A DNA stretch of 64,000 nt from Clostridia bacterium (GCA_017556745.1 JAFYMF010000005.1:14238-78237), one strand, 5' to 3'; counted from the first letter of the stretch, positions 1,363-56,292 are shown. Notes: generated by a model from the sequence alone, not told the origin. Numbers and translations are program-made.

Positions 1363-1773
1363 TTATGTAAATTCCGATTTGTATGATTTGAGAATAATAT
1401 CAACCTTTTTCTTTGTAGATTCATGCTTTGATGAAAAAGCGTTACTTCCCTGGTTTAATATTTCTGAAAAGTTTGCGGGATACCTGTTGGCAAGGGTATC
1501 GATGTATATCCATGCGGCATCAATGGAAATACCGTCTACTATGATATCCACAATACGCCTTGATTCGGCGTCTGACATATACTGTCCCTTAAGCACGGTA
1601 TCAAGGTAAAGCGGCATCGTTTCACGGTATGAGTATGATGCCATAGCCTCAAGAACAGCACCGACAATCTCGGGAGAGGTATTCATTTTGGGAATGGCAA
1701 CCGCACAGAAACTGGTGTCAGGGAAGGAATAATAGTTTTTCTGGTTTTTATCATATTTATTGCTGTACAGCGC
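1363..1773 (-). pseudogene. 5'-truncated remnant (C-terminal ~135 codons) of the SBP-like lipoprotein family found at 31-40 kb
   Basis: The track ORF 1363-1686 stays open in frame up to a stop at 1774-1776. The translation LYSNKYDKNQKNYYSFPDTSFCAVAIPKMNTSPEIVGAVLEAMASYSYRETMPLYLDTVLKGQYMSDAESRRIVDIIV... aligns with ILPMPKYDEKQKEYYSMPFERFQTYSVPKTNRNPEMATAILEALSAETWRKVIPVYSEMVLKGKYLSDPQSRNMFDMII of ORF 31156-32658. No signal peptide or N-terminal ~360 aa is present. Confidence 0.75.
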
Positions 1774-25416: not shown

Positions 25417-25420
25417 TATT

Positions 25421-26188: not shown

Positions 26189-26901
26189 ACTTCCTCCCCT
26201 TTGCAGATACTGTAGTCTCTGCTTTTTAAAACAGTCAACAGATCATCATTTGACAAAATCGGAGATTTTGTTATTATTCCACCACCAACATTTTCACCGC
26301 TGTGTGAAAGATCTGAACCGGAAATACCTCCTACACCGTAATACTCTGCCCTTGCCTGTGCAAAAGGATTACTGCACACATCAGCTTTACAGTGATTATA
26401 CACCTCAAGACCGTCTATGGTACGTAACGGATGTTTATCCTTTCCGTTAAGGTCAATTATTACAGAACCATTTGCGAAAGGCACCGCTTGATAGACAAGT
26501 ATATCTCCGCTGGAATGCAAATTGGTTATAAAATCGGTAAACCACATTGCATCGGAAATCGTTCTGTCATACTCGAGTATAAACTTGGGAGTCAAACCGT
26601 ATATCAAAAACTCACCCGAGGCACTCGGTACCGACATCTCAGCACCAAGAAGAACAACAAGGTCATTTCCGGCAACACTTCTAAGCTTTTCATATGCTGA
26701 AATAAATTCTTCACCAAGGGTTCTCATACTCTTTCCCGCATGCTGCTCATCGCTGAAAACTTTATTCCCCCAAGGATTGGTAAGAACGATTCCGCTATAA
26801 CCTGCTTCAATATGTGCAACAACAGTTTCCTCAGCAGAAATACTTGATCGTCCGCTATATGTAAAATCTGACGTAAGAGCATGAAGATCGTATTTATACA
26901 T
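26185..26901 (-). CDS. PHP-like paralog, type B (degenerate), copy 2
   Basis: MYKYDLHALT (second His lost), LTNPW, GAEMS, YQAVPF (His lost), DGLEVYN and SGSDLSH. Its stop overlaps the A2 start as ATGA. Confidence 0.65.
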   Translation of the reverse strand: MYKYDLHALTSDFTYSGRSSISAEETVVAHIEAGYSGIVLTNPWGNKVFSDEQHAGKSMRTLGEEFISAYEKLRSVAGNDLVVLLGAEMSVPSASGEFLIYGLTPKFILEYDRTISDAMWFTDFITNLHSSGDILVYQAVPFANGSVIIDLNGKDKHPLRTIDGLEVYNHCKADVCSNPFAQARAEYYGVGGISGSDLSHSGENVGGGIITKSPILSNDDLLTVLKSRDYSICKGEEV

Positions 26902-26906
26902 TGATT

Positions 26907-27680
26907 TTACCTCTTTATGCTCGTAAATCGGTATTTCGGATGCATTTCGCTGACACCTGCAACCGGTCCGTCAGGAAGAGATAATGCATATTGTTTATTA
27001 TTAAGCACATCTATCAGCTCTGATTGTGAGTTGATAGGTTTCTCGGTATATATTCCACCCCAGGGATTATTCCACTCTCCATGATAGTCTGAGCCGGTTA
27101 TGGTTCTTAAATCATGCTCCTTTGCCCAGTTAAGAGCCATATCATCTGTATAATGATCACCGTGGCTGTAATTTATCGCCTCTATTCCGTCAACCTTATC
27201 CCGTGACATAGCTTCATCCACATGACGGAATATATCTGTGGGAAGAATCGTAAGTCCGTCTCTGAATGGATGTGACTGATATATCAGGCATCCATGATCG
27301 TGAGCAATACGTGTAAGTTCTTCCTGAGTAAGCTTATAGAAGGACATACCCAAATCTAATATAAAATCTCTGTCGATATTATAAATAAGGAACTCACAGT
27401 ATGCGGGTTGGTCTATCTGAACCTCAACACCGCAGAAAACAGAGAGCTTTCCCTCGGCAGCTTCCTTCATTTTCAGATATCCGTTCATAAAGAAATCAGC
27501 CCTCTCCTGTAGGTTAAATCCTTCAACATTCATATAATGCAGAACTTCTCTGCTCCAATGATTTGTAACATTTACTCCTGTGTATCCTTTCTCGCAGTAA
27601 GCATTAACTACTTGCTCCGGAGTAGCTTGCGCACAAGGACTTACATCGGCAGTATGAAGGTGCATCTCGTATTTATACAT
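26907..27680 (-). CDS. PHP-like metal-dependent phosphoesterase, type A, copy 3
   Basis: MYKYEMHLHTADVSPCA, VTNHW, GVEVQI, YQSHPF, DGIEAINY, TGSDYH and HPKYRF. I chose the ATG at 27680, which has a GGTGAGGA RBS. The track start at 27695 is a GTG. Confidence 0.7.
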   Translation of the reverse strand: MYKYEMHLHTADVSPCAQATPEQVVNAYCEKGYTGVNVTNHWSREVLHYMNVEGFNLQERADFFMNGYLKMKEAAEGKLSVFCGVEVQIDQPAYCEFLIYNIDRDFILDLGMSFYKLTQEELTRIAHDHGCLIYQSHPFRDGLTILPTDIFRHVDEAMSRDKVDGIEAINYSHGDHYTDDMALNWAKEHDLRTITGSDYHGEWNNPWGGIYTEKPINSQSELIDVLNNKQYALSLPDGPVAGVSEMHPKYRFTSIKR

Positions 27681-28389
27681 TTTTATTTTCCTCACCTACA
27701 AGAATATATTTTCTGTTTTTCAAAACAGATACAAGGTCAGCATTTGAAGTTATAGGCTTTTCAGTAAGAATTCCGCCGCAAACGCTTCCGCCACGGTAAG
27801 AAAGATCGGAGCCGGACACTGCACCCACGTTATAATGCTCAGCACGTGCCGCGGCAAAGTGATTACAACACACATCCGCTCTGCGATGGTTATAGACCTC
27901 AAGGCCATCTGCCATGCGTTCCGGATGTTCTTCTGAAAAATCAACGACAACCGACCACGGTGCAAAGGGAGATGCTTGATATACTAACACGTCTCCCTTA
28001 GAATGAACATATGATGCAAAATCGGAAAACCAATCCTTATCTGCGCGGTGCGGTTCATACTCAAGTAAAAACTCCGGTGTAATACCGTATAAAAGGAAAT
28101 TACCGTTAGCACACTCTACCGTCGCCTCTGCTCCTAAAAATATATCCAGAGCATTTCCTGCAGCAGTCTTTATCTTTTCGTATGCGGCAAGGAATTCCTC
28201 TGCCAATTGCTTTACATCCTTACCATCGTGAGATGGGTCACTAAATATCTTTTTTCCCCAAGGATTGGTAAGCACCATTCCGCGGTATCCTGCGAGGATA
28301 TGTACCTCGACAGTCTCTTCCGCGGAAATATCAGAGCGGCCGTTGTATGTAAAATCTGCTGTTAATGAATGAAGATCGTATTTGTACAT
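27673..28389 (-). CDS. PHP-like paralog, type B (degenerate), copy 3
   Basis: MYKYDLHSLT, LTNPW, GAEATV, YQASPF, DGLEVYN and SGSDLSY. I chose the ATG at 28389, which follows an AGGTGA RBS just after the ygjP-like stop. Its own stop overlaps the A3 start by 8 nt (AATGTATAA). Confidence 0.65.
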   Translation of the reverse strand: MYKYDLHSLTADFTYNGRSDISAEETVEVHILAGYRGMVLTNPWGKKIFSDPSHDGKDVKQLAEEFLAAYEKIKTAAGNALDIFLGAEATVECANGNFLLYGITPEFLLEYEPHRADKDWFSDFASYVHSKGDVLVYQASPFAPWSVVVDFSEEHPERMADGLEVYNHRRADVCCNHFAAARAEHYNVGAVSGSDLSYRGGSVCGGILTEKPITSNADLVSVLKNRKYILVGEENKNV

Positions 28390-28398
28390 AATTTTCAC

Positions 28399-28935: not shown

Positions 28936-30216
28936 TTATGCAAGCAAAGAATCAAACGCTGACTTAATGTCAGAATACATATACAGCGAACCGAATGCAG
29001 CGATTACTTTCACACCCTCGTTTTTGGCTTCTTCATAAGCTGAAGCTACTGCACTCTGAATACTGTCATACGCAACAGACGTCTTCCCTTTTTCACGGAA
29101 CACTTCTGCAAACTCCTCTGCAGGAAGAGACCTGGGATTATTTGGAGTTACAGTGAACACCTTGCTGACAATAGGTAAAACAATATCAGCAAGTTCCCGA
29201 TAATTCTTATCAGCCATTACCCCTGTTATAAGATATATCTTTTCACCGCCAAAATACTGTTCTATACTTTCAACCGCCGCCCTGATACCGTGAGGATTAT
29301 GAGCACCATCAAGGATTACATACGGTTCCTTTGATATTATTTCGAAGCGTGCAGGCCACCTGACAGTCCCAAGTCCTGCTTTAACAGTATCATTGGTAAT
29401 ACCTGTGAATTTCTCCTTAAGTATCTCAGTCGCCTCAAGAACCATTGCCGTATTCTTTTTCTGAAACATCCCTACAAGAGGTACGGTTACACTGTCATAG
29501 TTTTTATACGCAATACTTGTACCGCAAACAGACGAACCAAGATCATGAATAAGACTAAAATCGGGAGAATAGAGCATTGCTCTTTTTTCTTCCGCAACAG
29601 CTCTTATAACTTTTTCTGCCTCCGGATTCTCTCCGTAGAAAAGTACAGGACAACCGTCCTTAATTATTCCTGATTTTGCGGTTGCAATCTGACTGTAATC
29701 CGAACCGAGCTCTTTTGTATGGTCAAGTCCGATGGCGGTTATAACAGATAGATCGGGAGAAGTAATAACATTGGTAGAATCAAGTCCACCGCCCATACCA
29801 ACCTCAAGAACAACTACGTCACATGCGTTACGTCTGAAATACTCAAATGCCGCCACAGTTATAAGTTCAAATTCAGTCGGTTTATCCTCCATAGCCTCAG
29901 CATGGGGTTTAATAAAGCTGATAACTTCTACAAGCTCATCATCCGGAATATTCTGTCCGTTTATTCTCATTCTCTCGTTAAAGGTAACGATATATGGAGA
30001 GGTATAAAGACCGGTTTTATATCCCGATTTTTCAAGTATACTCGCAAGCATACAGGAAAAGGAACCCTTACCGTTGGTACCTGCAACGTGGACGAAACGA
30101 AGTTCTCTATGAGGATTACCGATACGGTCAAGAAGTTCTATAGTTCTCTCAAGTCCAAGCCGAGATCCGCGCCAATTTACGCTGTGTATATATTCTATTG
30201 TTTCATTGTAAGTCAC
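28936..30216 (-). CDS. folC: Folylpolyglutamate synthase / dihydrofolate synthase
   Basis: VHVAGTNGKGS gives the P-loop. YTSPYIVTFNERMRING and the Mur-ligase-like layout also fit. Length is 426 aa. Confidence 0.9.
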   Translation of the reverse strand: MTYNETIEYIHSVNWRGSRLGLERTIELLDRIGNPHRELRFVHVAGTNGKGSFSCMLASILEKSGYKTGLYTSPYIVTFNERMRINGQNIPDDELVEVISFIKPHAEAMEDKPTEFELITVAAFEYFRRNACDVVVLEVGMGGGLDSTNVITSPDLSVITAIGLDHTKELGSDYSQIATAKSGIIKDGCPVLFYGENPEAEKVIRAVAEEKRAMLYSPDFSLIHDLGSSVCGTSIAYKNYDSVTVPLVGMFQKKNTAMVLEATEILKEKFTGITNDTVKAGLGTVRWPARFEIISKEPYVILDGAHNPHGIRAAVESIEQYFGGEKIYLITGVMADKNYRELADIVLPIVSKVFTVTPNNPRSLPAEEFAEVFREKGKTSVAYDSIQSAVASAYEEAKNEGVKVIAAFGSLYMYSDIKSAFDSLLA

Positions 30217-30230: not shown

Positions 30231-30764
30231 TTATTTTTTTCGCTGAACAGGTAGTATTCCTCGCCTCATAATAAACAAAATAGCAAAGAATTCAACAGTT
30301 CCTACCACAAGGGACACGCCCAAACCTATAAAAGCCCCGACCGTAGGCATACCGAGCCAAAGGATTTTGGCGATAGATTTTATAATGACCTGTCCTATAA
30401 TATGGGCAGAGGCTACTGCAAATGAGTATTGCACGCCGCCTCTTTTTCTAAATATATACCTCGGTACAGCACCCGAACAAAAGCCCACCGCCGCGGCACC
30501 GAGAGTTATAAGCGGAATCACAGCGGGATTGGATGAACAAAGGCAACTGAGCAAGTCAGCACAAATACCGCAAGCAGCACCGTAAAATGGACCGAAAGTA
30601 ATGCCTGCAAGAATTATCGGCAGGTTTTCAAACGTTACTCTGTAATAAACGTTGAAGGTAAAAAAATTCTTACAAACAATGCCGATTATTACACTGAGTG
30701 CCGTAAGCATTGCAACTGCGGTAATAGTCTGAGTTTTTGAAAAGACACTTGAATTTTTTTGCAT
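30231..30764 (-). CDS. folT: ECF-transporter S component, probably folate-specific (FolT-like)
   Basis: A 177-aa protein with about six TM segments, sitting immediately downstream of a THF riboswitch and upstream of folC. Specificity is inferred from this context. Confidence 0.65.
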   Translation of the reverse strand: MQKNSSVFSKTQTITAVAMLTALSVIIGIVCKNFFTFNVYYRVTFENLPIILAGITFGPFYGAACGICADLLSCLCSSNPAVIPLITLGAAAVGFCSGAVPRYIFRKRGGVQYSFAVASAHIIGQVIIKSIAKILWLGMPTVGAFIGLGVSLVVGTVEFFAILFIMRRGILPVQRKK

Positions 30765-30836: not shown

Positions 30837-30936
30837 AACAGCGGGATGCGGAATCGGCACCGCTGACGTTTACCGTCAATTCGTCCCAATGACAACTCCC
30901 CGTCCATCGGGCACTATCGCGCCGTATCCTACTCTG
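30837..30936 (-). promoter_or_regulatory. THF (tetrahydrofolate) riboswitch aptamer
   Basis: Minus strand reads cAGAGTAGgATacggCGCGaTAGTGcccgatggacGGGGAgtTGTCAttgggACGAAttgacggtaaacgtcaGCGGTGccgATTccGCATCCcGCTgtt. It matches the conserved blocks of the THF-I class (AGAGUAG...CGCGUUAAGUG...GGGAUGUCGUCA...ACGAA...GCGGUG...GCAUCCGCU) in the correct order. Confidence 0.8.
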
Positions 30937-30973
30937 TTTTTTTCACAATCTATATTGTAAAAAACCATTTATA

Positions 30974-31001
30974 AGTATACCATATTTTTATTTTTTTACA
31001 A
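30974..31001 (-). promoter_or_regulatory. Candidate promoter of the THF-riboswitch/folT operon
   Basis: Minus strand reads TTGTAA (31001-30996), 16 nt spacer, TATACT (30979-30974), with TGg upstream of the -10. Confidence 0.45.
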
Positions 31002-31040
31002 GTGGTTACACCGATAAAATACCATTTTCGATAAATAAAA

Positions 31041-31074
31041 ATATCCGACGCCAAAATCAACGTCGGATATTTTT
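31041..31074. terminator. Terminator hairpin (copy 1 of a repeated terminator-promoter cassette)
   Basis: atatccgacg-ccaaaatcaa-cgtcggatat is a 10-bp stem flanked by an A-run and TTTT. It lies downstream of lipoprotein gene 31156-32658. Confidence 0.75.
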
Positions 31075-31155
31075 ATTTACCTGCATCAGATTCGGGAGAG
31101 CACGATATAAATAAGCACTTCCGCTTACTTATCTGTTTAAATTATAGATATAAAC

Positions 31156-32658
31156 TCAGTTACCAAAAATCTTATTATTAAGTTCTTTTACTAAAAGTTT
31201 GAGTACCCTGTTTTTACTTGCAAGATTAGTTGTAAACTCGCTCAACTTATTATTTTCTACAGGATATCTAAAGAGGAATGAGCCTATCTCTCCCATTTGT
31301 TTGTCATATGTAAGCCCTGCATCAACTCTCGTATTAGTTATAATCATGTCAAACATATTTCTGGACTGTGGATCGCTTAGATATTTTCCTTTAAGTACCA
31401 TCTCTGAATATACAGGAATAACTTTACGCCAGGTCTCGGCGCTGAGTGCTTCCAGAATAGCGGTTGCCATCTCGGGGTTTCTGTTGGTTTTTGGCACACT
31501 GTAAGTCTGAAACCTCTCGAAAGGCATTGAATAATATTCTTTCTGCTTTTCATCATATTTTGGCATCGGAAGTATACCGTAATCATCCTGCATGTTACGG
31601 AATTCAGGAGTTTCAGCACATACAAGCTTCTGGGTAATCATAAACACATTGCCTGATGTAAACAAAGTATCAGCATCCTTCGCTGCTGTTATGTTGCTGA
31701 ACGCACCTTCACCGTAACAAAGCGCTAATATTTTTTCAAGTCCGTTATATGCCTTTTCTTCATTGAGCACAAACTCATACTCACCTATATCATTATATGC
31801 AAGAATGTCGATATCAAATGCACTCCAATAGGAATCTGTTGACCAATAGAGAGGAGAGCAATAGCCGTAGGTATCATCCATATCTCGAGTATCATCACCG
31901 TCAAGATCAGAATACATTCCTGATACAAGAGCAATCTGATAGTCTATTGTCCAATTTCCGTTATTAACTACATCATAAAGATTTTCAACTTTCTGTTCTT
32001 CAGCAATTCTCTTGTTGAAGAATGTTGCATGAATAGAACGAGTCATTGACAGTGACAAAGATCCGGCAAGTAAATAAATTTCATCATCATTGCAAATCTC
32101 ATCAAAAAACTGTCCTGACCACCATGGAGCCTCAGGATCTATATAATCAGTCTTAAGATCAAGAACATTATGGTAATATCCATCAATGGCATAGGAAACA
32201 GATTCAGCAGCTCCAAGCCCGATAATCTGATATGCATCCTCATCGGCACCAAATGTTATTTCAAGTATCTCACGAATTCTCGATGAGTCCTCACATACAC
32301 TCTCAATCTTACAGTTAAACCGTTCCATGACATACAAATTACGGTTATAAATAGAGTCATTGAGCGGTTCACTTGTCAGCTCATCTACCCAGAGCTCATT
32401 ATCGTATACATATCTGGTCGAGGAAGTGTTGATAACTGGAGCAAGTGAAAGAATACGAATTGTCTCTCCGCCGAAATTAAGAGCCGGAACACCATCCTCA
32501 AGATCACGATAGAGTTGAACTATTCCGTTCGGATTCTCATTCAAACTTGCGGTAGTTACAGACGTATCCGTATCTTTACTGCTGTCTACCCCAACCGAAC
32601 ATGAACATAACAATATTGCTATGAAAAGTGCAAGAGCGATAAGACGTATTTTTCTCAT
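31156..32658 (-). CDS. SBP-like lipoprotein paralog 1 (putative family-1 extracellular solute-binding protein, ~500 aa)
   Basis: Signal peptide plus Cys (LFIAILLCSCS), a Ser/Thr/Asp linker, then conserved blocks shared with four neighbours: NPNGI.QLYRD, GGETIRIL, WVDELTSEPLNDSIYNRN, APWWSGQFF, LAGSLSLSMTRSIHATFFNKRIAEE, NMQDDYGILPMPKYDEKQ.EYYSMPFE and VLKGKYLSDPQSR.MFDMI. The SBP assignment itself is by architecture only. Confidence 0.6.
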   Translation of the reverse strand: MRKIRLIALALFIAILLCSCSVGVDSSKDTDTSVTTASLNENPNGIVQLYRDLEDGVPALNFGGETIRILSLAPVINTSSTRYVYDNELWVDELTSEPLNDSIYNRNLYVMERFNCKIESVCEDSSRIREILEITFGADEDAYQIIGLGAAESVSYAIDGYYHNVLDLKTDYIDPEAPWWSGQFFDEICNDDEIYLLAGSLSLSMTRSIHATFFNKRIAEEQKVENLYDVVNNGNWTIDYQIALVSGMYSDLDGDDTRDMDDTYGYCSPLYWSTDSYWSAFDIDILAYNDIGEYEFVLNEEKAYNGLEKILALCYGEGAFSNITAAKDADTLFTSGNVFMITQKLVCAETPEFRNMQDDYGILPMPKYDEKQKEYYSMPFERFQTYSVPKTNRNPEMATAILEALSAETWRKVIPVYSEMVLKGKYLSDPQSRNMFDMIITNTRVDAGLTYDKQMGEIGSFLFRYPVENNKLSEFTTNLASKNRVLKLLVKELNNKIFGN

Positions 32659-32802
32659 TTTCAGTCTCCTTTTTGTCTGTAAAATTTTTATGCTATGTTT
32701 TTATATTAATTCGAATAGACAAACAGCATATCTATCGTCAAATATAACACAGCACATTTTTAGTGATTTTCGACAAAGAATACAGAACTTTTCATTTTTT
32801 AT

Positions 32803-32831
32803 AGTATATCATACACATATTTCTTTTGCAA
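32803..32831 (-). promoter_or_regulatory. Candidate promoter of lipoprotein paralog 1
   Basis: Minus strand reads TTGCAA (32831-32826), 17 nt spacer, TATACT (32808-32803), with TGa upstream. It is homologous to the folT promoter region. Confidence 0.45.
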
Positions 32832-32867
32832 GCAATTACACAAAAAAATACCATTTTCAGTAAAAAA

Positions 32868-32897
32868 ATATCCGACGTTGATTTGAACGTCGGATAT
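32868..32897. terminator. Terminator hairpin (copy 2 of the repeated cassette)
   Basis: atatccgacg-ttgatttgaa-cgtcggatat has a stem identical to copy 1 and a loop that is approximately its reverse complement. It directly follows the deacetylase stop. Confidence 0.75.
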
Positions 32898-32907
32898 TTC
32901 TTGTTTA

Positions 32908-33999
32908 TCAGTATTTAAGTCTGAAAAGCCAGTCGGAATCAAGCTCGTCAAGAGTAGCAAAAGTATATCCGCTGGACAGAAGAGTTTCAATTATATACGG
33001 AAGAGCCTCTACGGTAGGCGAAGTAGTGTCGTGCATGAGCATGATCTTCGGGTAACGTGCCGAACAACTGTTTATTGTCTCAATCGCCGAACGCTTAAGG
33101 TATTCAACCTCAGGCATATCCTCAGGCTTGCCGCCGAGATAACGATCATTATTTGCACATGTCCAGTCAAAACTTATGTACCCGATATCCTTTACTGCCT
33201 GATAAAACGCAGGAAAATCAGACTTCGGCAGTGCATAGTTGTTTGAACCACCCGGGAATCTGAATATTTTTTGTTCAGGTATGTATCCCAGAGCTTTTTC
33301 AACCTCTGCTTCCCATTTTCTGATATCATTTACAAGAGACTCGGGGGTAGCATATACATCATCAAACTCATGTGAATAGGTATGACAAGCTACAACGTGA
33401 CCTGCCGCCACCATGTTTCTCACTCTCTGCGGATAATAGGAAACAAAGGTACCGACGGTGAAAAACGTTGCCTTGACACCGTAGTTGTCAAGTATCTCAA
33501 GCACAGCATCGTTATACTTGTTAGGTCCGTCATCAAAGGTCAAATATATAACCTTCTCCCCATTACCCTGAACGTTTGTGGGAAGATCGTCAGGGGTAAC
33601 AGTAGGGGGTGCAGTGGTTTCCTCCGGACCGAGACTTACTATAACAGTAATCGGATATGCCTCGTTAATGCGAAGATACGATTCCTCTTCTCTGCCGACA
33701 TAATTACAGGATATAACAACGCCTGCTTCTATGTCCGAATGAGTGTACGAAAAAGAATATTTAATTTTTGTGTTGTCAAAAATTGCTGAAACCTCCGGCT
33801 CTGTTTTACCGACAAGGTTAGGAATGGTTATAAATACTTCTCTGGCTGTGGTCAGTTCTTTGGTTACCCATTCCATCGTACTGTTATCAGTACCGCTGGT
33901 TTCCGTTGCCCCTGTGGTAACCTCTGTACATCCGATACCGAGGGACAAAACAACGACAGAAAGCAAGAACAATGCAATGTACTCTTTAAATTTTTTCAT
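32908..33999 (-). CDS. Lipoprotein polysaccharide deacetylase (CE4 NodB domain) with an N-terminal PASTA-like module
   Basis: Lipobox LSLGIGCT. IPNLVGKTEPEV resembles a PASTA-like strand. NodB motifs are YLTFDDGP, ACHTYSH and RFPGG, with LMHD late in the sequence. Confidence 0.8.
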   Translation of the reverse strand: MKKFKEYIALFLLSVVVLSLGIGCTEVTTGATETSGTDNSTMEWVTKELTTAREVFITIPNLVGKTEPEVSAIFDNTKIKYSFSYTHSDIEAGVVISCNYVGREEESYLRINEAYPITVIVSLGPEETTAPPTVTPDDLPTNVQGNGEKVIYLTFDDGPNKYNDAVLEILDNYGVKATFFTVGTFVSYYPQRVRNMVAAGHVVACHTYSHEFDDVYATPESLVNDIRKWEAEVEKALGYIPEQKIFRFPGGSNNYALPKSDFPAFYQAVKDIGYISFDWTCANNDRYLGGKPEDMPEVEYLKRSAIETINSCSARYPKIMLMHDTTSPTVEALPYIIETLLSSGYTFATLDELDSDWLFRLKY

Positions 34000-34044
34000 T
34001 AATTTTTTACCGTCCTGCTACGATGTAATTTTCAGTAAAATATA

Positions 34045-35559
34045 TTATTCTTTAAAGGCAAGCTCATTAAGATTTTTAATAAACAGTTTTAGCATTCTAC
34101 TTTTGGATGCAAGATTTGTGGTAAAGTGTTCAGCATTATTATATTCAATGGGATATCTGTAAAGATTTGACGGAATACTTCCGATCTTATCGTAAAACAT
34201 AATTCCGGAATCTATCTTTACGCTACCAATAACCTTATCAAACATAGTTCTTGACTGTGGGTCGCTTAAATATTTTCCTTTGAGAACCATCTCCGAATAC
34301 GTGGGGATAACCTTTCTCCAGGTTTCTGCACAAAGTGCCTCAAGAACAGCAGTTACCATCTCAGGCTGAATAACCGTCTTAGGTATAGAATACGTCTGAA
34401 AGATCTCAAAGGGCATTGAATAATATTCACTCTGCTTTTTATCATATTTAGGCATAGGAAGAATACCGTAATCATCCTGCATATTACGGTATCCGGGAGC
34501 CTCCGCACACGCAAGCTTCTGTGTTATCATGAAAACTCTTCCTGATGTGAACAAATCGTCGGTCTGTTTAGTTGACTCGACATAACTGTAGGCAGCATCA
34601 CTGTAACAAAGCTTCAGCACCTTAATAAGTCCGTCATACGCTTTTTCGGTATTAAGTACAAACTCAAATTCTCCGTCATTGTTTTTGGAGAGAATATCGA
34701 TATCGAATGCTGACCAGTATGAATCGGATGACCAGTAAAAGGGTGAACAGAATCCGTATGAGTCATCCAAATCATGCTCATCATTACCGTTAACATCACG
34801 GTACATACCCGATGTAACCTCTATCTGATAGTCTATAGTCCAACGTCCGTCGTTAACTACTTCATAAAGATTCTCTACATTTTGCTCTTCTGCTATTCTC
34901 TTGTTGAAATAAGTCGCATGAATGGAGCGTGTCATTGACAGGGACAGTGCACCGGCAAGCACCATGATCTTATCATTTACGCCTGTTGCCTCAAAAAACT
35001 GCTGTGACCACCAAGGTGCTTCAAAATCGATATAGTCTGTTTCGAGAGCTGTCAGATCGTGAAAATAACCATCAAGACTAAGAGAAACAGTAGGTGCCGC
35101 CTCATGTCCGATTACCTGATAAACGTCCTCATCAGCATTAAAGAGGATGTCAAACTTTTGTGTAATTTCAGCTGCTGTAGCTACATCATTTTCAATCACG
35201 CAATTTAAACGATCCATAACATACATATTACGGTTATAGATAGAGTCACTAAGAGGCTCGCTTGTAAGATCTTCTACCCAAATTTCGTTGTCATATACGT
35301 AAGCCGTGGAGGATGAACTATTCTTAAGAGAAAGGATTCGTATTGTTTCACCGCCTAAATTAAGACTATCGGGAAGAGAGTCCTCCTGATCACGGTAAAG
35401 CGAAGAAATTCCATTTGGATCTTCGGTCTTCTGTGCGGTAGTGTCAGATGAATTTCCTTTGTTTGTGTCAGAATTACTACCGGTGGAAGAACAAGCTATG
35501 GTAGAAAGAAGAGACACTAACAGAAGTAAGGATAAAATTTTTCTAAACGCGCTTTTCAT
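34045..35559 (-). CDS. SBP-like lipoprotein paralog 2
   Basis: Lipobox LLSTIACSS and the same conserved blocks as paralog 1. The C-terminus is KLFIKNLNELAFKE. Confidence 0.6.
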   Translation of the reverse strand: MKSAFRKILSLLLLVSLLSTIACSSTGSNSDTNKGNSSDTTAQKTEDPNGISSLYRDQEDSLPDSLNLGGETIRILSLKNSSSSTAYVYDNEIWVEDLTSEPLSDSIYNRNMYVMDRLNCVIENDVATAAEITQKFDILFNADEDVYQVIGHEAAPTVSLSLDGYFHDLTALETDYIDFEAPWWSQQFFEATGVNDKIMVLAGALSLSMTRSIHATYFNKRIAEEQNVENLYEVVNDGRWTIDYQIEVTSGMYRDVNGNDEHDLDDSYGFCSPFYWSSDSYWSAFDIDILSKNNDGEFEFVLNTEKAYDGLIKVLKLCYSDAAYSYVESTKQTDDLFTSGRVFMITQKLACAEAPGYRNMQDDYGILPMPKYDKKQSEYYSMPFEIFQTYSIPKTVIQPEMVTAVLEALCAETWRKVIPTYSEMVLKGKYLSDPQSRTMFDKVIGSVKIDSGIMFYDKIGSIPSNLYRYPIEYNNAEHFTTNLASKSRMLKLFIKNLNELAFKE

Positions 35560-35629
35560 TATTATTTTCTCATTTCTGCTTATAAAAATTCTAATTTAAC
35601 TTTCAAGATTACTTTATCACAAAAACATG

Positions 35630-37129
35630 TTATTCTTTAGAAGCGAGTTCATTAAGATTTTTAATAAACAATTTCATGTTTTTGCTCTTCGAAGCAAGTT
35701 CGGAAGAAAAATTTCCCGGATCGTTGATTTCTATGGGATAACGGTAAAGAGCTGATGCTATATTACTTATTTTTATGTAGTACATGATACCGGCATCGAT
35801 TTTTGTGTTGCTGATGATCATATCGAACATATCTCTTGACTTAGGATCATTTAAATATTTTCCTTTAAGAACCAGCTCTGAGTAAGTAGGTATGATCTTT
35901 CTCCATGTCTCTGCACAGAGTGCCTCAAGCACAGCGGTAGCCATATCCGTCCGAGCTGTTGTTCTGGGAACTGAATATGTCTGAAATATCTCATACGGCA
36001 TTGAATAATATTCGCTCTGCTTCTCGTCAAATTTGGGCATAGGAAGTATACCGTAGTCATCCTGCATATTACGGAATTCCGGAGTCTCCGCATATGATAT
36101 CTGCTGAGTGGTCATAAACACGTTACCGGAAACAAACATATCACCTGTATTGGAATAATGATAAGCACCTTCACCGTAATAAAGAGCGATTATCTTAAGA
36201 AGACCGTCATAAGCCTTTTCAGAATTGAGCACAAATTCAAAATCACCGTATTCATTTCGTGAAAGAATATCGATATCAAAGGCACTCCAATATGAATCGG
36301 TAGACCAATATTTAGGCGTACAAAAGCCGTATTCATCCTCTATATCTTTTGTATCATTACCGTTGACATCTCGGTACATACCCGACACAAGCTGTGTATG
36401 GTAATCAATTGTCCATAATCCATCGTTTGTAACGGTATAGAGATTTTCAACATTATACGCTTCCGCGATTCTCTTGTTAAAATAAGTCACGTAAATAGAC
36501 CGTGTCATTGAGAGAGACAAGGAACCGGCAAGGGCAAATATTTTTCCGTTAGCATTTGTTGACTCAAAGAATTGACCCGACCACCAAGGTGCATCAAAAT
36601 CAATATAATCAGTTTCAAGATTTGTCAGATCGTAAAAATACGAATCAAGTCCGAGATTGAGCGCAGGTGCTGCCTCAAATCCAACAACCTGATAAACATC
36701 TTCATCTGCAAAATGGGTCTTCTCAAGCATCTTGTTAAGATCCGCTGCTACCGCAAGCTCGTTTTCTATTTTACAGTTGAGACGTTCCATAACATACATA
36801 TTACGGTTATAGATAGAGTCGTTGAGAGGCTCACTTGTCAGCTCATCTACCCATATTTCGTCATCATACACGTTTCCCGTGGTAGATCCTCTGTTTTTCA
36901 AAGTGAGAAAACGAATTGTCTCTCCGCCGAAATTAAGACTGGGAAGGCTGTCTTCAAGATCACGATAAAGCTGGGATATACCGTTTGGATCTTCGGTCTG
37001 TTGTGCAGTAGTTACAGACGTATCTCCTTTATCCTTACCGTCATCTGAATCCATAGAAGAACATGCAACAACAGAAAGAAGAAACACCGATACAAGTATT
37101 AATGAAAAAATTCTAAGTGTGATTTTCAT
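35630..37129 (-). CDS. SBP-like lipoprotein paralog 3
   Basis: Lipobox LLSVVACSS and the same conserved blocks. The C-terminus is KLFIKNLNELASKE. Confidence 0.6.
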   Translation of the reverse strand: MKITLRIFSLILVSVFLLSVVACSSMDSDDGKDKGDTSVTTAQQTEDPNGISQLYRDLEDSLPSLNFGGETIRFLTLKNRGSTTGNVYDDEIWVDELTSEPLNDSIYNRNMYVMERLNCKIENELAVAADLNKMLEKTHFADEDVYQVVGFEAAPALNLGLDSYFYDLTNLETDYIDFDAPWWSGQFFESTNANGKIFALAGSLSLSMTRSIYVTYFNKRIAEAYNVENLYTVTNDGLWTIDYHTQLVSGMYRDVNGNDTKDIEDEYGFCTPKYWSTDSYWSAFDIDILSRNEYGDFEFVLNSEKAYDGLLKIIALYYGEGAYHYSNTGDMFVSGNVFMTTQQISYAETPEFRNMQDDYGILPMPKFDEKQSEYYSMPYEIFQTYSVPRTTARTDMATAVLEALCAETWRKIIPTYSELVLKGKYLNDPKSRDMFDMIISNTKIDAGIMYYIKISNIASALYRYPIEINDPGNFSSELASKSKNMKLFIKNLNELASKE

Positions 37130-37206
37130 TGTGATCTTTCACTTTCTTTTTTTAGTAAGCTTCCTTTTTGACTGTAACATTACTTTGCTACTAAAAAATC
37201 GACTTA

Positions 37207-38724
37207 CTACTCTTTAAATGCAAGCTCATTAAGGTTCTTGATGCACATCTTCATAATTCTGTTCTTGGAAGCAAGATTCTTTGTGAACTCGGTGATCTTA
37301 TTATTTTCTACAGGATATCTGTAAAGGAATGCACCAATCTCACTGGTATGCGCAACGTATACAAGTCCGGCATCAACTCTGGTATTAGAAACGATCATGT
37401 CAAACATGGTTCTTGACTGAGGATCACTCAGATATTTACCCTTAAGTACAACTTCTGAATAGATTGGCATTACCTTACGCCAAGACTCAGCACAAAGCAC
37501 CTCAAGAAGTGCAGTAGCCTTTTCTGGATTTGTGTTTGTTTTAGGAACGGAATATGTCTGGAACACCTCAAAAGGCATTGAATAATATTCACTCTGCTTC
37601 TCGTCATATTTGGGCATGGGAAGTATACCGTAATCATCACGCATGTTACGGAAAATTTGTGCTTCAGCACACGCAAGCTTCTGTGTGATCATAAAAGCAT
37701 TACCTGACACGAACAGATCATCTGCATCACTGGTACCCGCTATATCGCTAAAAGAACCTTTACCGTAGCAAAGAGCCAATATCTTGCTTAAGCCGTCATA
37801 TGCCTTTTCTTCATTAAGGGTGAACTCAAATTCCCCATCATCGTTTTTGGAAAGAATATCAATATCAAAAGCACTGAAGTAGGCATCGGTAGACCAATAT
37901 TTGGGAGAACAAAAACCGTATTCGTCCTCTTTATCACGCACGTCATCGCCGTTAACATCTCGGTACATATCTGATACAAGCTGTGTCTGGTAATCAATAG
38001 TCCAACGGCCATCGTTTACAACATCATAAAGGTTCTCTACCTTCTGCTCTTCAGCAATTCTCTTATTAAAGAAAGTAGCATGTATGGAACGAGTCATTGA
38101 CAGCGACAACGACCCCGCAAGAACATAGATATTATCGTTGGCGCTAACCTCATCTAAAAACTGTCTTGACCACCAAGGTGCATCAAAATCAATATAATTG
38201 TTTTCAAGTGCATTAATATTTCTGAAATACCCGCCAAGAGCGAGATCAAGTGCTCCTGCAACAGTAAAACCGACAACCTGGTAAACATCCTCATCCGCAA
38301 AATGTGTCTTCTCAAGCAATTGTTTAATATCAGATGCATCTGCTTGTTCACTTACAATTTTACAATTAAGACGCTCCATAGCATACATGTTACGATTATA
38401 AATAGAATCGCTGAGAGGATCGCTTGTAAGCTCGTCTACCCAAAGCTCATTGTCGTATACATATCTAAGCGAAGTAGACGTTTCGTCCTTTACAAGTGTA
38501 AGAAAACGGATAGTCTCTCCCTCGAAGTTAAGAGCAGGCACACTGTCCTCAAGATCACGATAAAGCGTAGCAATTCCGTTTGGATTTTCAGTCTTCTGTT
38601 CGGTAGTTACAGATGTGTTTTCTTTATCTTTGTTGCTATCGGAGTCTCCGGAAGAACAAGCAATCACAGAAAGAAGAAATACAAAAAGAAGCATAGACGA
38701 GAGAATTCTTAGTGTCAATTTCAT
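37207..38724 (-). CDS. SBP-like lipoprotein paralog 4
   Basis: Lipobox LLSVIACSS and the same conserved blocks. I chose the start at MKLTLRIL (ATG 38724, AGAGGT RBS). The track start at 38778 adds 18 residues ahead of the signal peptide. Confidence 0.6.
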   Translation of the reverse strand: MKLTLRILSSMLLFVFLLSVIACSSGDSDSNKDKENTSVTTEQKTENPNGIATLYRDLEDSVPALNFEGETIRFLTLVKDETSTSLRYVYDNELWVDELTSDPLSDSIYNRNMYAMERLNCKIVSEQADASDIKQLLEKTHFADEDVYQVVGFTVAGALDLALGGYFRNINALENNYIDFDAPWWSRQFLDEVSANDNIYVLAGSLSLSMTRSIHATFFNKRIAEEQKVENLYDVVNDGRWTIDYQTQLVSDMYRDVNGDDVRDKEDEYGFCSPKYWSTDAYFSAFDIDILSKNDDGEFEFTLNEEKAYDGLSKILALCYGKGSFSDIAGTSDADDLFVSGNAFMITQKLACAEAQIFRNMRDDYGILPMPKYDEKQSEYYSMPFEVFQTYSVPKTNTNPEKATALLEVLCAESWRKVMPIYSEVVLKGKYLSDPQSRTMFDMIVSNTRVDAGLVYVAHTSEIGAFLYRYPVENNKITEFTKNLASKNRIMKMCIKNLNELAFKE

Positions 38725-38827
38725 GATAGTACCTCTATTTATTCTTAATATTCGAAAGCAATTTAACTTTAACAACAATGTTTAGGCAATGGTAACTGCG
38801 TTAATTTTCATTCTGGATTGGTGCAAA

Positions 38828-40333
38828 TCAATCGTCAAACACCGATTCGTTAAGAAGCTTTACATACATCGGCATTTTTCTCTTTATTTTCTCAAGATTA
38901 GAAGCAAAATTCTCAGGTTGATTTCTCTCAATAGGAAATCTGTAGAGGTGGGAGCCGATCTCGCCTATCCTTCTGTAATACATAAGCCCTGCATCTATTT
39001 TGGTATTGTTGATAATCATATCAAACATTTTTCTCGACTGGGGATCACTGAGGTATTTTCCTTTTAAGACGATCTCCGAGTATGTAGGAATGATCTTTCG
39101 CCAGGTTTCTGCAGAAAGTGCCTCAAGAATTGCACTTGCCATCCCTGTATTACGACAGGTTTTTGGGATCATATATGTCTGGAATATCTCATAGGGCATA
39201 GAATAATATTCTTCCTGCTTCTTATCAAACTTCGGCATGGGGATTATGCCGTAGTCATCCTGCATATTACGAAAAGTAACTGTCTCAGCACAAGCAAGCT
39301 TTTGGGTGATCATAAATGTCTCACCGGAAGCGAACATCCTCTCGACATCGCTGTCATCGATATTTTCACCGTGAGCACCGTCACCGTAGCTGAGATTATA
39401 TATCTTCTGGAAACCATCATAAGCCTTTTCCTCATTCAGAGAAAACTCAAATCTTCCGTCATCATCAAATGAAAGAATCGTCAAGTTAAAAGCACTCCAG
39501 TATGAATCAACAGCCCAGTAGAATGACGTTGCATATCCAAACCTGTCACCGATATTTTTAGTGGTGCTTCCGTCAAGGTCTCGATACATATTCGATACAA
39601 GCTCAGTCTGATAATCGATAGTCCAGCGGCCTTCATTTACAACATTGTATAGGTCCTCGACACCCTCGTCCTCTGCTATTCGCTTATTAAAGAAGGTAGC
39701 ATGGATAGAACGGATCATTGACAGAGATAGCGAACCGGCAAGAACATATACACGATCGTCTGCCGCTATCGATTCAAAAAACTGTCCCGACCACCAAGGC
39801 GCATCAAATTCTATATAGTCTGTATCAAGATTGTTCAGGTCACAGAAATATCCATCAAGGCTCTTTGCCAAAGATTCTGCGGCCTCATATCCGATAATCT
39901 GATATACATCGTCATCCGCATTGAAGTGCTTCTCGATAGTTGACGAAACGGTAGATGCACTGGCAAGTTCATCTACGATCTTACAGTTAAACCGTTCCAT
40001 AACATACATATTACGGTTGTATATAGAATCTTTGAGCGGATCACTGGTAAGCTCCTCGACCCATATCTCATCGTTATATACTTCACCGGTCATATCTCTG
40101 TTCTTGAGAGTAAGGAATCTGATTGTTTCTCCACCGAAATTAAGCTCAGGAAGACTATCCTCGCGTTCACGATAAAGCTCTGAAATCGCCGGTGTCTTCT
40201 GATCTGACACTGTCGTTTCCACTATATTTGACGTTTCGTTATTTTTACTACCGTCACTATCAGACGAGCATGCGCAGAAAGTAAATGTAATAGCTACAAG
40301 AATGATGCCTGAAAGTATTCTCGTCATTTTCAT
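38828..40333 (-). CDS. SBP-like lipoprotein paralog 5 (most divergent)
   Basis: Lipobox TFTFCACSS, with the same conserved blocks: GGETIRFLTL, WVEELTSDPLKDSIYNRN, APWWSGQFF and NMQDDYGIIPMPKFDKKQEEYYSMPYE. Confidence 0.6.
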   Translation of the reverse strand: MKMTRILSGIILVAITFTFCACSSDSDGSKNNETSNIVETTVSDQKTPAISELYREREDSLPELNFGGETIRFLTLKNRDMTGEVYNDEIWVEELTSDPLKDSIYNRNMYVMERFNCKIVDELASASTVSSTIEKHFNADDDVYQIIGYEAAESLAKSLDGYFCDLNNLDTDYIEFDAPWWSGQFFESIAADDRVYVLAGSLSLSMIRSIHATFFNKRIAEDEGVEDLYNVVNEGRWTIDYQTELVSNMYRDLDGSTTKNIGDRFGYATSFYWAVDSYWSAFNLTILSFDDDGRFEFSLNEEKAYDGFQKIYNLSYGDGAHGENIDDSDVERMFASGETFMITQKLACAETVTFRNMQDDYGIIPMPKFDKKQEEYYSMPYEIFQTYMIPKTCRNTGMASAILEALSAETWRKIIPTYSEIVLKGKYLSDPQSRKMFDMIINNTKIDAGLMYYRRIGEIGSHLYRFPIERNQPENFASNLEKIKRKMPMYVKLLNESVFDD

Positions 40334-53306: not shown

Positions 53307-53382
<76 letters not shown>

Positions 53383-56289: not shown

Positions 56290-56292
56290 CTT

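What the first reader, a model, noticed from the sequence alone, without database searches (positions are those of the whole stretch)
31156..40333. Array of five ~500-aa SBP-like lipoprotein paralogs with no cognate ABC permease or ATPase, interrupted by a lipoprotein CE4 deacetylase
Five minus-strand genes (31156-32658, 34045-35559, 35630-37129, 37207-38724, 38828-40333) encode collinear paralogs. Each has a lipoprotein signal and a Ser/Asp/Thr-rich tether.

Long conserved blocks are shared across all five:
- GGETIR(I/F)L
- WV(D/E)ELTS(E/D)PL.DSIYNRN
- APWWS.QFF
- LAGSLSLSM(T/I)RSIHAT(F/Y)FNKRIAE
- NMQDDYGI(L/I)PMPK(Y/F)D.KQ.EYYSMP(F/Y)E
- VLKGKYL(S/N)DP(Q/K)SR.MFD

Between these blocks lie variable segments, which would be the candidate ligand-pocket regions. 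Size and architecture resemble large family-1 extracellular solute-binding proteins.

The only ABC membrane and ATPase genes in the 64 kb (9354-13019) belong to a BMP system that has its own binding protein. The five genes are separated by 45-250 nt AT-rich spacers, so they may be individually regulated. A PASTA-like/NodB deacetylase lipoprotein sits between copies 1 and 2.

Possible roles are a battery of alternative receptors feeding one distant permease, or surface glycan capture proteins working with the deacetylase on acetylated glycans.
Basis: partly seen in the sequence, partly recalled or inferred. Interest (0 to 1): 0.62.

Follow-up and report, generated by a model that had tools for sequence, protein, structure and literature searches.

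The report
Orphan sugar-binding-protein lipoprotein gene array
Five neighbouring genes encode surface lipoproteins that look like the sugar-catching part of an ABC importer but have no importer beside them. They belong to a very large, unnamed family in uncultured gut Clostridia whose members almost never sit next to a transporter, so it is an open question what they deliver their cargo to.

Summary
Five intact minus-strand paralogs of 499-505 aa (58-68% identical) carry a lipobox and a polar tether, and a CE4 deacetylase lipoprotein lies between copies 1 and 2. No Pfam or NCBIfam model reaches threshold. A family profile matches the sugar-binding protein AbnE (E 1e-6). An AlphaFold model (pLDDT 88) matches more than 1,000 maltose-binding-protein-like structures.

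The 64 kb holds no BPD_transp_1 permease. The family is much larger than the array:
- 7,307 representative clusters at E<=1e-30.
- At least 13-21 copies per MAG.
- Tandem arrays of 10 or more.
- About 200 copies in about 1.2 Mb of flanking DNA, none beside a sugar-type permease pair.

Recurrent neighbours are AraC regulators and cytoplasmic catabolic enzymes.

The paralogs are old (dS saturated) and under purifying selection (dN/dS 0.05-0.15). Copies 5-4-3-2 and CE4 look like one operon. Copy 1 is a separate unit and is absent in some bovine-gut strains.

Best reading: these are ligand-specific receptors that use a shared translocator encoded elsewhere, as proposed for the Bordetella Bug proteins. 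A permease-independent role is not excluded. This is a new variant of a known kind, of moderate interest.

The parts
38828..40333 (-). Copy 5, a 501-aa SBP-fold lipoprotein. It is the first gene after nrdR.
   Evidence: ORF. Family HMM 633 bits over the full length. Lipobox TFCAC. Clusters with the NrdR-proximal copies of L001 and L008.
37207..38724 (-). Copy 4, a 505-aa SBP-fold lipoprotein.
   Evidence: It gives the only marginal SBP_bac_1 hit among the five (E 0.066).
35630..37129 (-). Copy 3, a 499-aa SBP-fold lipoprotein. This copy was the one modelled.
   Evidence: AlphaFold2 pLDDT 87.8, pTM 0.84. Foldseek matches to Lmo0181, RafE, MalE3 and GacH at E 6e-13 to 1e-11.
34045..35559 (-). 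Copy 2, a 504-aa SBP-fold lipoprotein.
32908..33999 (-). CE4 (NodB-type) deacetylase lipoprotein with a sub-threshold PASTA-like N-terminal domain. It is the last gene of the probable operon.
   Evidence: Polysacc_deac_1 at 4.6e-29. Motifs TFDDG, HTYSH, RFPG, DW and LMHD. The closest solved relatives are peptidoglycan GlcNAc deacetylases (5jmu, 1e-28).
32798..32905 (-). Module A: an intrinsic terminator (hairpin 32866-32899 followed by a T-run) plus a promoter-like element upstream of copy 1.
   Evidence: Sequence and hairpin. 77% identical over 112 columns to module B.
31156..32658 (-). Copy 1, a 500-aa SBP-fold lipoprotein. It is a separate transcription unit and is present in some natural strains and absent in others.
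   Evidence: Contigs of runs X4 and X10 join 31036 to 32864 (1,827 bp skipped, 14-nt overlap), with almost no depth over copy 1: zero in three of the four depth bins between 31122 and 32617, and low depth in 31496-31869. Runs X1 and X6 carry the copy.
30968..31077 (-). Module B: a duplicate of the terminator (about 31039-31072) and promoter-like element. It lies downstream of copy 1 and upstream of the THF riboswitch and folT.
1366..1773 (-). A 3'-terminal remnant (family HMM positions 361-489) of a sixth copy from a different subfamily.
   Evidence: hmmsearch E 1e-45. Closest to copies in L022 and L030.

Best explanation
The five genes encode membrane-anchored extracytoplasmic ligand receptors of the carbohydrate-type (CUT1 / maltose-binding-protein-like) SBP fold.

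They belong to a very large, so far unnamed, lineage-specific family of uncultured gut Clostridia. In this family the receptor genes have been uncoupled from transporter genes and have multiplied, as scattered single genes and as tandem arrays.

Each paralog most likely binds a different small carbohydrate or related metabolite through its inter-lobe cleft. It then hands the ligand to a translocator that is encoded elsewhere in the genome and shared by many family members. This is a 'many receptors, few permeases' layout, like that proposed for the Bordetella Bug proteins and, on a smaller scale, shown for OppA/Ali paralogs.

In this window, copies 5-4-3-2 are probably co-transcribed with a peptidoglycan-type CE4 deacetylase lipoprotein. 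Copy 1 is a later, separately transcribed addition.

Shown: fold, lipoprotein anchoring, paralogy, purifying selection, absence of adjacent permeases, family size, and the copy-number polymorphism.

Inferred: ligand class, delivery to a distant shared translocator, and operon structure.
For: Fold:
- The family profile matches AbnE (6rjy) at E 1.3e-6, and also other sugar SBPs.
- The AlphaFold model has pLDDT 87.8.
- Foldseek gives 1,026 PDB hits at E<=1e-3. The listed top hits are MBP-like sugar SBPs or MBP fusion constructs, apart from a dinucleotide-binding SBP.
- 13 of 90 relatives hit SBP_bac_1 and 4 of 90 hit SBP_bac_8.

Anchoring: the Cys of the lipobox is invariant in 90 sequences, and a lipobox is essentially universal.

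Maintained function: dN/dS is 0.05-0.15 with saturated dS.

Orphan status is a property of the whole family:
- There are 184 family segments in 1.03 Mb of flanks.
- The only BPD_transp_1 genes there belong to PotABC (L032) and to two complete polar-amino-acid systems that have their own SBP_bac_3 (L077 and L082).
- No other locus has two adjacent 250-330-aa multi-TM genes.
- The distant members in L084-L092 also lack permeases.

Import is implied by the neighbours. These are AraC regulators in 6 loci, GFO/IDH/MocA and aldo-keto reductases, four tandem nucleoside hydrolases, a mannitol-dehydrogenase-family enzyme, DHquinase with an SDR, and a GH2/GH172/GH43/GH36 cluster. All are cytoplasmic or sugar-processing functions that need their substrate inside the cell.

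Precedent for distant shared partners: the Bug family (PMC11452294).
Against: - No candidate shared permease was seen. About 1.2 Mb sampled from about 35 or more MAGs contains four other-class ABC importers but not one CUT1-type permease pair. Such permeases may therefore be rare or absent in these genomes.
- Sharing of one ABC permease by more than 10 SBPs has no documented precedent for CUT1 systems.
- No ligand, expression or docking data exist.
- The window copies themselves do not reach any Pfam SBP threshold.
- In this particular locus the co-transcribed partner is an extracellular cell-wall-type enzyme, not a catabolic one.
Confidence: 0.45

Rival explanations
1. These are permease-independent surface binding proteins. 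The SBP fold has been co-opted as a cell-surface glycan-capture module, functionally like the SusD/SGBP lipoproteins of Bacteroidota. It holds substrates near extracellular enzymes, and uptake goes through unrelated transporters.
For: No CUT1 permease was found in about 1.2 Mb around about 200 copies. L084 places a family gene in a PUL-like cluster with CBM9, Laminin_G_3, GH43, GH36, GH2 and GH172 and no transporter. In the window the genes share a probable operon with an extracellular CE4. One member (P0049) replaces the lipobox with a dockerin-like, Cys-rich N-terminal extension.
Against: Many copies sit beside cytoplasmic enzymes for small molecules: nucleoside hydrolases, mannitol-dehydrogenase family, DHquinase and oxidoreductases. 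This points to small imported ligands rather than polymers. The fold and size match oligosaccharide importer SBPs. No consistent association with secreted glycoside hydrolases was seen.
Confidence: 0.22
2. These are neofunctionalised accessory lipoproteins for cell-envelope enzymes. As with the mycobacterial orphan SBP-like LpqZ, FecB and LpqW, the proteins would bind or present a cell-wall precursor and assist a membrane or wall enzyme, here the adjacent peptidoglycan-type CE4 deacetylase.
For: CE4 adjacency is conserved across relatives that have diverged to about 47% identity (window, L001, L003, L008). The CE4 is closest to PG GlcNAc deacetylases and has a weak PASTA-like domain. LtaS, LytR_cpsA_psr and FtsW/RodA neighbours occur in a few loci. 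The precedent is bioRxiv 10.1101/2025.06.19.660376.
Against: CE4 adjacency occurs in only 4 of about 90 loci, all within one syntenic block, so it may simply be inherited gene order. Thirteen to 21 or more divergent copies per genome and arrays of 10 are hard to reconcile with a housekeeping envelope role. The dominant neighbours are metabolic.
Confidence: 0.1
3. These are signalling co-receptors. The ligand-loaded protein would dock to a membrane sensor (as with LuxP-LuxQ, ChvE-VirA, or the SBP-dependent sugar sensors of Ruminiclostridium) to induce catabolic genes, rather than to a transporter.
For: Orphan status fits this role. Regulators (AraC family) are the most frequent neighbour, in 6 loci.
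Against: AraC regulators are cytoplasmic and need no extracellular co-receptor. No histidine kinase or chemoreceptor gene appears in the Pfam-annotated contexts or as a recurrent neighbour cluster.
Confidence: 0.08
4. This is an ordinary ABC operon broken by rearrangement or by mis-assembly of a repeat-rich region.
For: None beyond the first impression given by a tandem repeat of similar genes.
Against: The paralogs are only 64-71% identical at the DNA level. Independent contigs from several metagenomes span the junctions. Syntenic loci in other species show the same permease-less arrangement.
Confidence: 0.02

Closest known systems
CUT1-type carbohydrate solute-binding proteins (Pfam SBP_bac_1 / SBP_bac_8; for example Lmo0181, RafE, MalE, GacH, AbnE)
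   Same: Both have the bilobal class-II periplasmic-binding-protein fold. Both are Gram-positive-style lipoproteins with a flexible tether. They share motifs typical of sugar SBPs: the D-x-N-G-D-type loop, the DYG..P.PK hinge strand, and aromatic-rich cleft elements.
   Different: The window proteins fall below Pfam thresholds. They are about 100 aa longer than typical 390-420-aa members. They are never encoded beside the two BPD_transp_1 permeases that define a CUT1 operon. They are multiplied to dozens of copies per genome.
Bordetella Bug proteins and other over-represented orphan TctC receptors of the tripartite tricarboxylate transporter family (PMC11452294)
   Same: Both are massively over-represented extracytoplasmic receptor families. 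Most of their genes lack any nearby membrane component and often sit beside metabolic genes, and shared distant partners have been proposed.
   Different: Bug proteins belong to a different receptor family (TctC), partner with secondary transporters (TctAB) rather than ABC systems, and are soluble periplasmic proteins of Proteobacteria rather than lipoproteins of monoderm Clostridia.
Multiple SBP paralogs sharing one ABC permease: Borrelia OppA1-5, pneumococcal AmiA/AliA/AliB, HisJ/ArgT, LivJ/LivK, E. coli MppA with Opp (PMC3173086)
   Same: This is the mechanism proposed here: several receptors of different specificity dock to one translocator.
   Different: Those cases involve 2-5 receptors, mostly peptide or amino-acid classes, and the permease is known and usually adjacent to at least one receptor.
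Mycobacterial orphan SBP-like lipoproteins LpqZ, FecB and LpqW (bioRxiv 10.1101/2025.06.19.660376)
   Same: These are also SBP-fold lipoproteins without a transporter operon. This shows that such proteins can acquire non-transport roles in the cell envelope.
   Different: They are single-copy conserved genes from different SBP clusters, with demonstrated partners (AftA, AftB). Here there are dozens of divergent copies and no known partner.
Tandem lipoprotein paralog arrays such as the Staphylococcus aureus Lpl (DUF576) cluster (from my own knowledge)
   Same: The genomic architecture is the same: head-to-tail arrays of diverged lipoprotein paralogs whose copy number varies between strains.
   Different: The fold is unrelated and the context is host interaction.

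Membership tests
CUT1-type ABC solute-binding protein (SBP_bac_1 / SBP_bac_8 clan) | Bilobal class-II periplasmic-binding-protein fold | tested here: met
   AlphaFold2 pLDDT 87.8, pTM 0.84. Foldseek probability 1.00 to Lmo0181, RafE, MalE3 and GacH, with 1,026 PDB hits at E<=1e-3.
CUT1-type ABC solute-binding protein (SBP_bac_1 / SBP_bac_8 clan) | Sequence match to the family models at or above the curated threshold | tested here: not met
   The best hit among the five copies is SBP_bac_1 at E 0.066 and 13.6 bits, against a cut-off of 26. There is no NCBIfam hit. Indirect homology is nevertheless significant: the 90-sequence profile matches AbnE 6rjy at E 1.3e-6, and 13 of 90 relatives hit SBP_bac_1 (best 1.5e-7).
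CUT1-type ABC solute-binding protein (SBP_bac_1 / SBP_bac_8 clan) | Export signal with lipobox (Gram-positive SBPs) | tested here: met
   A lipobox is present in all five copies, and the Cys is invariant in the 90-sequence alignment.
CUT1-type ABC solute-binding protein (SBP_bac_1 / SBP_bac_8 clan) | Encoded with, or functionally coupled to, two BPD_transp_1 permeases and a MalK/MsmK-type ATPase | tested here: not met
   For genomic linkage, there is none in the 64-kb window and none next to about 200 relatives. Functional coupling to a distant permease cannot be tested here.
CUT1-type ABC solute-binding protein (SBP_bac_1 / SBP_bac_8 clan) | Binds a sugar or oligosaccharide in the inter-lobe cleft | not testable with these tools
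   Only indirect evidence: sugar-SBP-like motifs and sugar-related neighbours.
DUF3502-containing large SBPs (LplA-like) | C-terminal DUF3502 domain | tested here: not met
   No DUF3502 hit in the five copies or in any of the 90 relatives.
Over-represented orphan receptor families (Bug-like in the functional sense) | Many paralogs per genome, most without an adjacent membrane component | tested here: met
   Lower bounds of 13-21 copies per MAG. 7,307 representative clusters at E<=1e-30. No cognate permease nearby.
Over-represented orphan receptor families (Bug-like in the functional sense) | TctC-type fold or family (true Bug membership) | tested here: not met
   The fold and profile matches are to MBP-like CUT1 SBPs, not to TctC.
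CE4 / NodB polysaccharide deacetylase (the gene at 32908-33999) | NodB homology domain with the five catalytic and metal-binding motifs | tested here: met
   Polysacc_deac_1 at 4.6e-29. Motifs TFDDG154, HTYSH206, RFPG247, DW278 and LMHD321. The closest solved relative is PG GlcNAc deacetylase 5jmu at 1e-28.
PASTA domain (N-terminal part of the CE4 protein) | Match to the PASTA model at or above threshold | tested here: inconclusive
   E 0.0022 and 18.3 bits, against a cut-off of 23.2.

The most novel reading that the evidence does not exclude
A very large family of SBP-fold lipoproteins in gut Clostridia has been permanently uncoupled from ABC importers. These genomes may carry few or no CUT1 permeases. 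The proteins would then act either as free-standing surface capture or presentation modules (a Gram-positive counterpart of SusD-like proteins) or as receptors for a non-ABC translocator. Either would be a new mode of substrate acquisition for monoderm gut bacteria.
Probability: 0.25. Interest if true: 0.8.

Novelty: new variant of a known kind. Interest (0 to 1): 0.55.

Why it matters
Solute-binding proteins are normally read as 'specificity labels' of the ABC importer encoded next to them, and genome annotation and metabolic models rely on that linkage. Here a family with thousands of sequence clusters breaks the rule systematically. It carries no Pfam or NCBIfam name and is present at a dozen or more copies per genome in abundant but uncultured ruminant and other animal gut Clostridia.

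If the receptors share a few distant permeases, this would be an ABC-type counterpart of the Bordetella Bug puzzle. It would give an economical way to widen substrate range by duplicating only the receptor gene. That fits the strain-level gain or loss of copy 1 seen here.

If they work without a permease, they would be a new class of Gram-positive surface binding proteins.

Either way the family deserves its own model and a ligand screen. It also matters for predicting what these rumen and gut organisms eat.

Tried and rejected
- Pfam and NCBIfam scans of the five copies gave no family at threshold.
- A PDB search with the five-paralog profile gave nothing. It needed the 90-sequence profile.
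- An exact-sequence contig look-up of copy 3 found no record.
- The search for related loci with the 90-sequence alignment failed because no stretch was conserved enough. It worked with a 28-sequence alignment.
- The sigma-70 promoter scan showed no enrichment over shuffles (34 found against 34.3 expected) and the terminator scan little (11 against 7.0). It was therefore used only for the CE4 terminator hairpin.
- hhalign of the family against a single MBP sequence gave probability 0.4, which is useless.
- hmmalign of MBP aligned only MBP residues 159-242. A residue-level cleft map was therefore abandoned. The AbnE structure paper was not in the library.
- The search for RNA runs returned only three runs of unknown library type with thin, scattered contigs, so there is no expression evidence.
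- Hypothesis of a secondary-transporter partner: the multi-TM neighbours are heterogeneous (Asp-Al_Ex, CitMHS, Na/H exchanger, MatE, FtsW/RodA, DUF1538, MFS, EamA, BacA, RnfD), so it was rejected.
- Hypothesis that the L032, L077 or L082 permeases are the missing partners: they are PotABC and complete polar-amino-acid systems, so it was rejected.
- Recent gene conversion or very young duplicates: rejected, because DNA identity is 64-71% and dS is saturated.
- A literature search for 'orphan solute-binding protein + lipoprotein + permease' found nothing. A broader search gave only analogies.


Full report
1. OBSERVATION

The five minus-strand ORFs exist exactly as described: 31156-32658, 34045-35559, 35630-37129, 37207-38724 and 38828-40333. 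They encode collinear proteins of 499-505 aa that are 58-68% identical, with a mean column identity of 76%.

Every copy has a lipobox followed by a polar tether of about 30 aa (63-87% S/T/D/N/G/K/E). The structure model leaves this tether disordered.

The intervening gene, 32908-33999, is a CE4 deacetylase lipoprotein (Polysacc_deac_1 4.6e-29) with all five NodB motifs. Its PASTA match is sub-threshold. Its nearest solved relatives are peptidoglycan GlcNAc deacetylases.

I annotated essentially every substantial ORF of the window. The only ABC importer is the Bmp / BPD_transp_2 / ABC_tran set at 9354-14293. There is also an ECF S-component at 30231-30764. No BPD_transp_1 permease is present.

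Independent metagenome contigs cover the array, so it is not an assembly artefact.

2. WHAT THE PROTEINS ARE

No Pfam or NCBIfam model reaches threshold. The best hit is SBP_bac_1 at E 0.066 on copy 4.

A word-indexed homology search found 92 relatives. All come from uncultured Clostridia, and a few carry SBP_bac_1 or SBP_bac_8 hits or are named 'extracellular solute-binding protein'.

A 90-sequence profile matches the arabino-oligosaccharide-binding protein AbnE (6rjy, E 1.3e-6) and other sugar SBPs.

An AlphaFold2 model of copy 3 is confident (pLDDT 87.8, pTM 0.84). Foldseek finds 1,026 PDB matches at E<=1e-3. The top matches are Lmo0181, RafE, MalE3, GacH and a beta-L-arabinobiose-binding protein, which are the maltose-binding-protein-like carbohydrate SBPs.

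DUF3502 is not present.

3. THE FAMILY IS HUGE AND SYSTEMATICALLY ORPHAN

An exhaustive profile search of 1.84 billion representative proteins gives 7,307 clusters (50% identity) at E<=1e-30. The top 150 are all full-length proteins of about 480-570 aa.

A scan of GTDB species representatives returned 76 loci. All are from uncultured Clostridia, Oscillospiraceae, 'Eubacteriales', Ca. Avispirillum or Ca. Flemingiibacterium MAGs. Most are from ruminant or other animal guts, a few are from human-gut and other sample labels, and there are many loci per MAG.

Counting with the family HMM gives 184 family segments (169 near full length) in 1.03 Mb of flanks. Lower bounds are 13-21 copies per MAG, and tandem arrays reach 10 or more (L050).

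I screened these flanks in two independent ways for sugar-type permeases.
(i) I flagged every multi-TM protein. The only locus with two adjacent 250-330-aa multi-TM genes is L032.
(ii) I ran an iterated profile seeded with BPD_transp_1 proteins. It hit only L032, L077 and L082.

L032 is PotABC. L077 and L082 are complete polar-amino-acid systems with their own SBP_bac_3.

The other multi-TM neighbours are heterogeneous: EamA, BacA, RnfD, Asp-Al_Ex, CitMHS, Na/H exchangers, MatE, FtsW/RodA, DUF1538 and MFS.

Fourteen further places (L001-L007 and L084-L092, some redundant), with precomputed Pfam annotation, include the most distant homologs. None shows a permease.

Orphanhood is a property of the whole family.

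4. WHAT LIES NEXT TO FAMILY MEMBERS

Unbiased clustering of 350 neighbour proteins shows no dominant partner. The most recurrent neighbours are:
- AraC-type regulators, in 6 loci.
- ABC exporter-type proteins.
- GFO/IDH/MocA oxidoreductases.
- Aldo-keto reductases.
- CE4, but only in the four syntenic loci (window, L001, L003, L008).

Individual contexts add the following:
- Four tandem nucleoside hydrolases.
- A mannitol-dehydrogenase-family enzyme directly upstream of three copies.
- DHquinase with an SDR.
- GH65 and acetyltransferases.
- A PUL-like cluster: AraC, then the family gene, CBM9, Laminin_G_3 x2, GH43 and GH36, with GH2 and GH172 upstream.

These neighbours are largely cytoplasmic catabolic functions, which need their substrate imported. 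That is my main reason to prefer a transport-receptor role with a distant, shared translocator over a purely surface role.

5. THE LOCUS ITSELF

Copies 5, 4, 3, 2 and CE4 follow nrdR in the same orientation. Their spacers are 88, 103, 77, 70 and 45 nt and contain no terminator.

A strong intrinsic terminator (32866-32899 plus a T-run) follows CE4.

A module of about 110 nt, made of terminator plus promoter-like sequence, occurs twice: at 32798-32905 and at 30968-31077. The two copies are 77% identical over 112 columns and bracket copy 1. The second copy precedes a THF riboswitch and the folT-like ECF S-component.

In two bovine-gut metagenomes, contigs join 31036 to 32864. This skips 1,827 bp, with a 14-nt overlap that equals the shared hairpin arm. 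Depth over copy 1 is almost nil: zero in three of the four depth bins between 31122 and 32617. Two other metagenomes carry copy 1. Copy 1 is therefore a presence/absence polymorphism bounded by the duplicated module.

Syntenic loci in related species carry three copies before CE4 and none after it (L001, L008). A more distant relative has one copy (L003).

An NJ tree without bootstrap places window copies 1-4 with the single CE4-proximal copy of L001 and L008. It places copy 5 with their two NrdR-proximal copies. This points to independent, lineage-specific tandem expansion.

The paralogs are old. pS is 0.65-0.75, which is saturated, and DNA identity is 64-71%. They are under purifying selection, with dN/dS 0.05-0.15. 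All five are therefore maintained as functional genes.

A sixth, more divergent copy survives only as a 3' remnant at 1366-1773.

6. VARIABLE SEGMENTS AND THE CLEFT

Variability among orthologs and paralogs is concentrated in these places:
- the signal peptide and tether;
- the enlarged loop after strand beta1 (79-86, with indels);
- 124-140;
- 153-160;
- 170-176;
- 190-199;
- 323-331;
- 349-351;
- 392-397;
- 452-462;
- the C-terminal helix.

In maltose-binding-protein-like folds the loops after beta1 and beta3 carry sugar contacts (D14/K15 and W62/D65/R66 in MBP; established knowledge). By that topological analogy, 79-86 and 153-160 are cleft-proximal, while 124-140 and 323-331 are surface helices.

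This remains inference.

7. MECHANISM AND RIVALS

Best explanation, at about 45%: these are ligand-specific receptors that dock to a translocator encoded elsewhere and shared among many paralogs. The receptor repertoire grows and shrinks by tandem duplication and deletion.

The closest conceptual precedent is the Bordetella Bug family, for which distant shared partners are also the working hypothesis (PMC11452294). Small-scale sharing is established for OppA/Ali, HisJ/ArgT and MppA.

Rivals:
- Permease-independent surface capture proteins, about 22%. This is supported by the complete absence of CUT1 permeases in about 1.2 Mb and by the L084 cluster.
- Envelope-enzyme accessory proteins in the manner of mycobacterial LpqZ and FecB, about 10%. 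This is supported only by the CE4 synteny.
- Signalling co-receptors, about 8%. No sensor kinases were seen.
- A rearrangement or assembly artefact, which is refuted.

8. NOVELTY AND SCORE

The fold and the concept of orphan receptors are known. The new elements are the scale (thousands of clusters and a dozen or more copies per genome), the class (ABC CUT1-like lipoproteins of monoderm gut Clostridia), the absence of any curated family model, and the systematic uncoupling from permeases.

I rate it a new variant of a known kind, with interest 0.55. The decisive test is a whole-genome census of permeases in family-rich MAGs, which could not be run with the tools available.

Noticed in passing
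window 30837-30938 (-), with 30231-30764 and 28936-30216: A THF (tetrahydrofolate) riboswitch (76.5 bits, E 8e-16) lies directly upstream of an ECF S-component (folT-like), followed by a FolC-type Mur-ligase gene and a YgjP-like metallopeptidase. The block is conserved next to the array in L001, L003 and L008.
   Followed up: yes
window 23922-28398 (-): This is a second tandem paralog array: six back-to-back ORFs of about 240-260 aa, 27-61% identical to each other. Only weak PHP / PHP_C domain hits were found. The array is conserved in L001 and partly in L003. Function is unknown.
   Followed up: partly
window 30968-31077 and 32798-32905: A duplicated module of about 110 nt (terminator plus promoter-like element, 77% identical) brackets copy 1. 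The same promoter-like element therefore appears to drive both copy 1 and the riboswitch-folT unit. The 1,827-bp indel seen in runs X4 and X10 has its breakpoints in these repeats.
   Followed up: yes
window 3777-5006 (-) and 61020-63233 (-): Two further lipoproteins (409 aa and 737 aa) have lipoboxes and similar T/D-rich tethers but no Pfam domain. They match the family HMM only over the signal and tether region.
   Followed up: partly
window 58996-59253 (-): A T-box leader (106 bits) lies upstream of the acetolactate synthase large and small subunit genes, a RidA-like gene and an isopropylmalate-synthase-like gene (54628-58911).
   Followed up: no
window 60126-60926 (+): A second, shorter CE4 (Polysacc_deac_1, 8e-18, 266 aa) is encoded elsewhere in the window.
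   Followed up: no
window 22803-23870 (-) and 50102-52818 (-): Carbohydrate-related genes without transporters: a DUF2961/GH172 protein, and a NAGPA phosphodiester glycosidase that overlaps a 549-aa protein with no Pfam domain.
   Followed up: no
L001 3691-4692; L091 16533-17717; L092 16533-17735: PBP_like_2 (phosphate-type) binding proteins in these MAGs also stand without adjacent PstCAB-type permeases. Uncoupling of receptor genes from permease genes may therefore be a wider habit of this lineage.
   Followed up: no
P0049 (L007 6267-8156): This family member lacks a lipobox. It has a signal peptide followed by a dockerin-like D-x-N-G-D-G-K-V-D loop and a Cys-rich (CxxC) repeat region of about 130 aa ahead of the SBP domain.
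   Followed up: partly
L084 1-17401: A PUL-like cluster around a distant family member contains GH172, GH2, AraC, the SBP-like gene, CBM9, an unannotated 957-aa protein, Laminin_G_3 x2, GH43 and GH36. No transporter gene lies within the 17 kb.
   Followed up: partly
window 53065-53136 (-) and 53307-53379 (+): Two divergently oriented tRNA genes.
   Followed up: no
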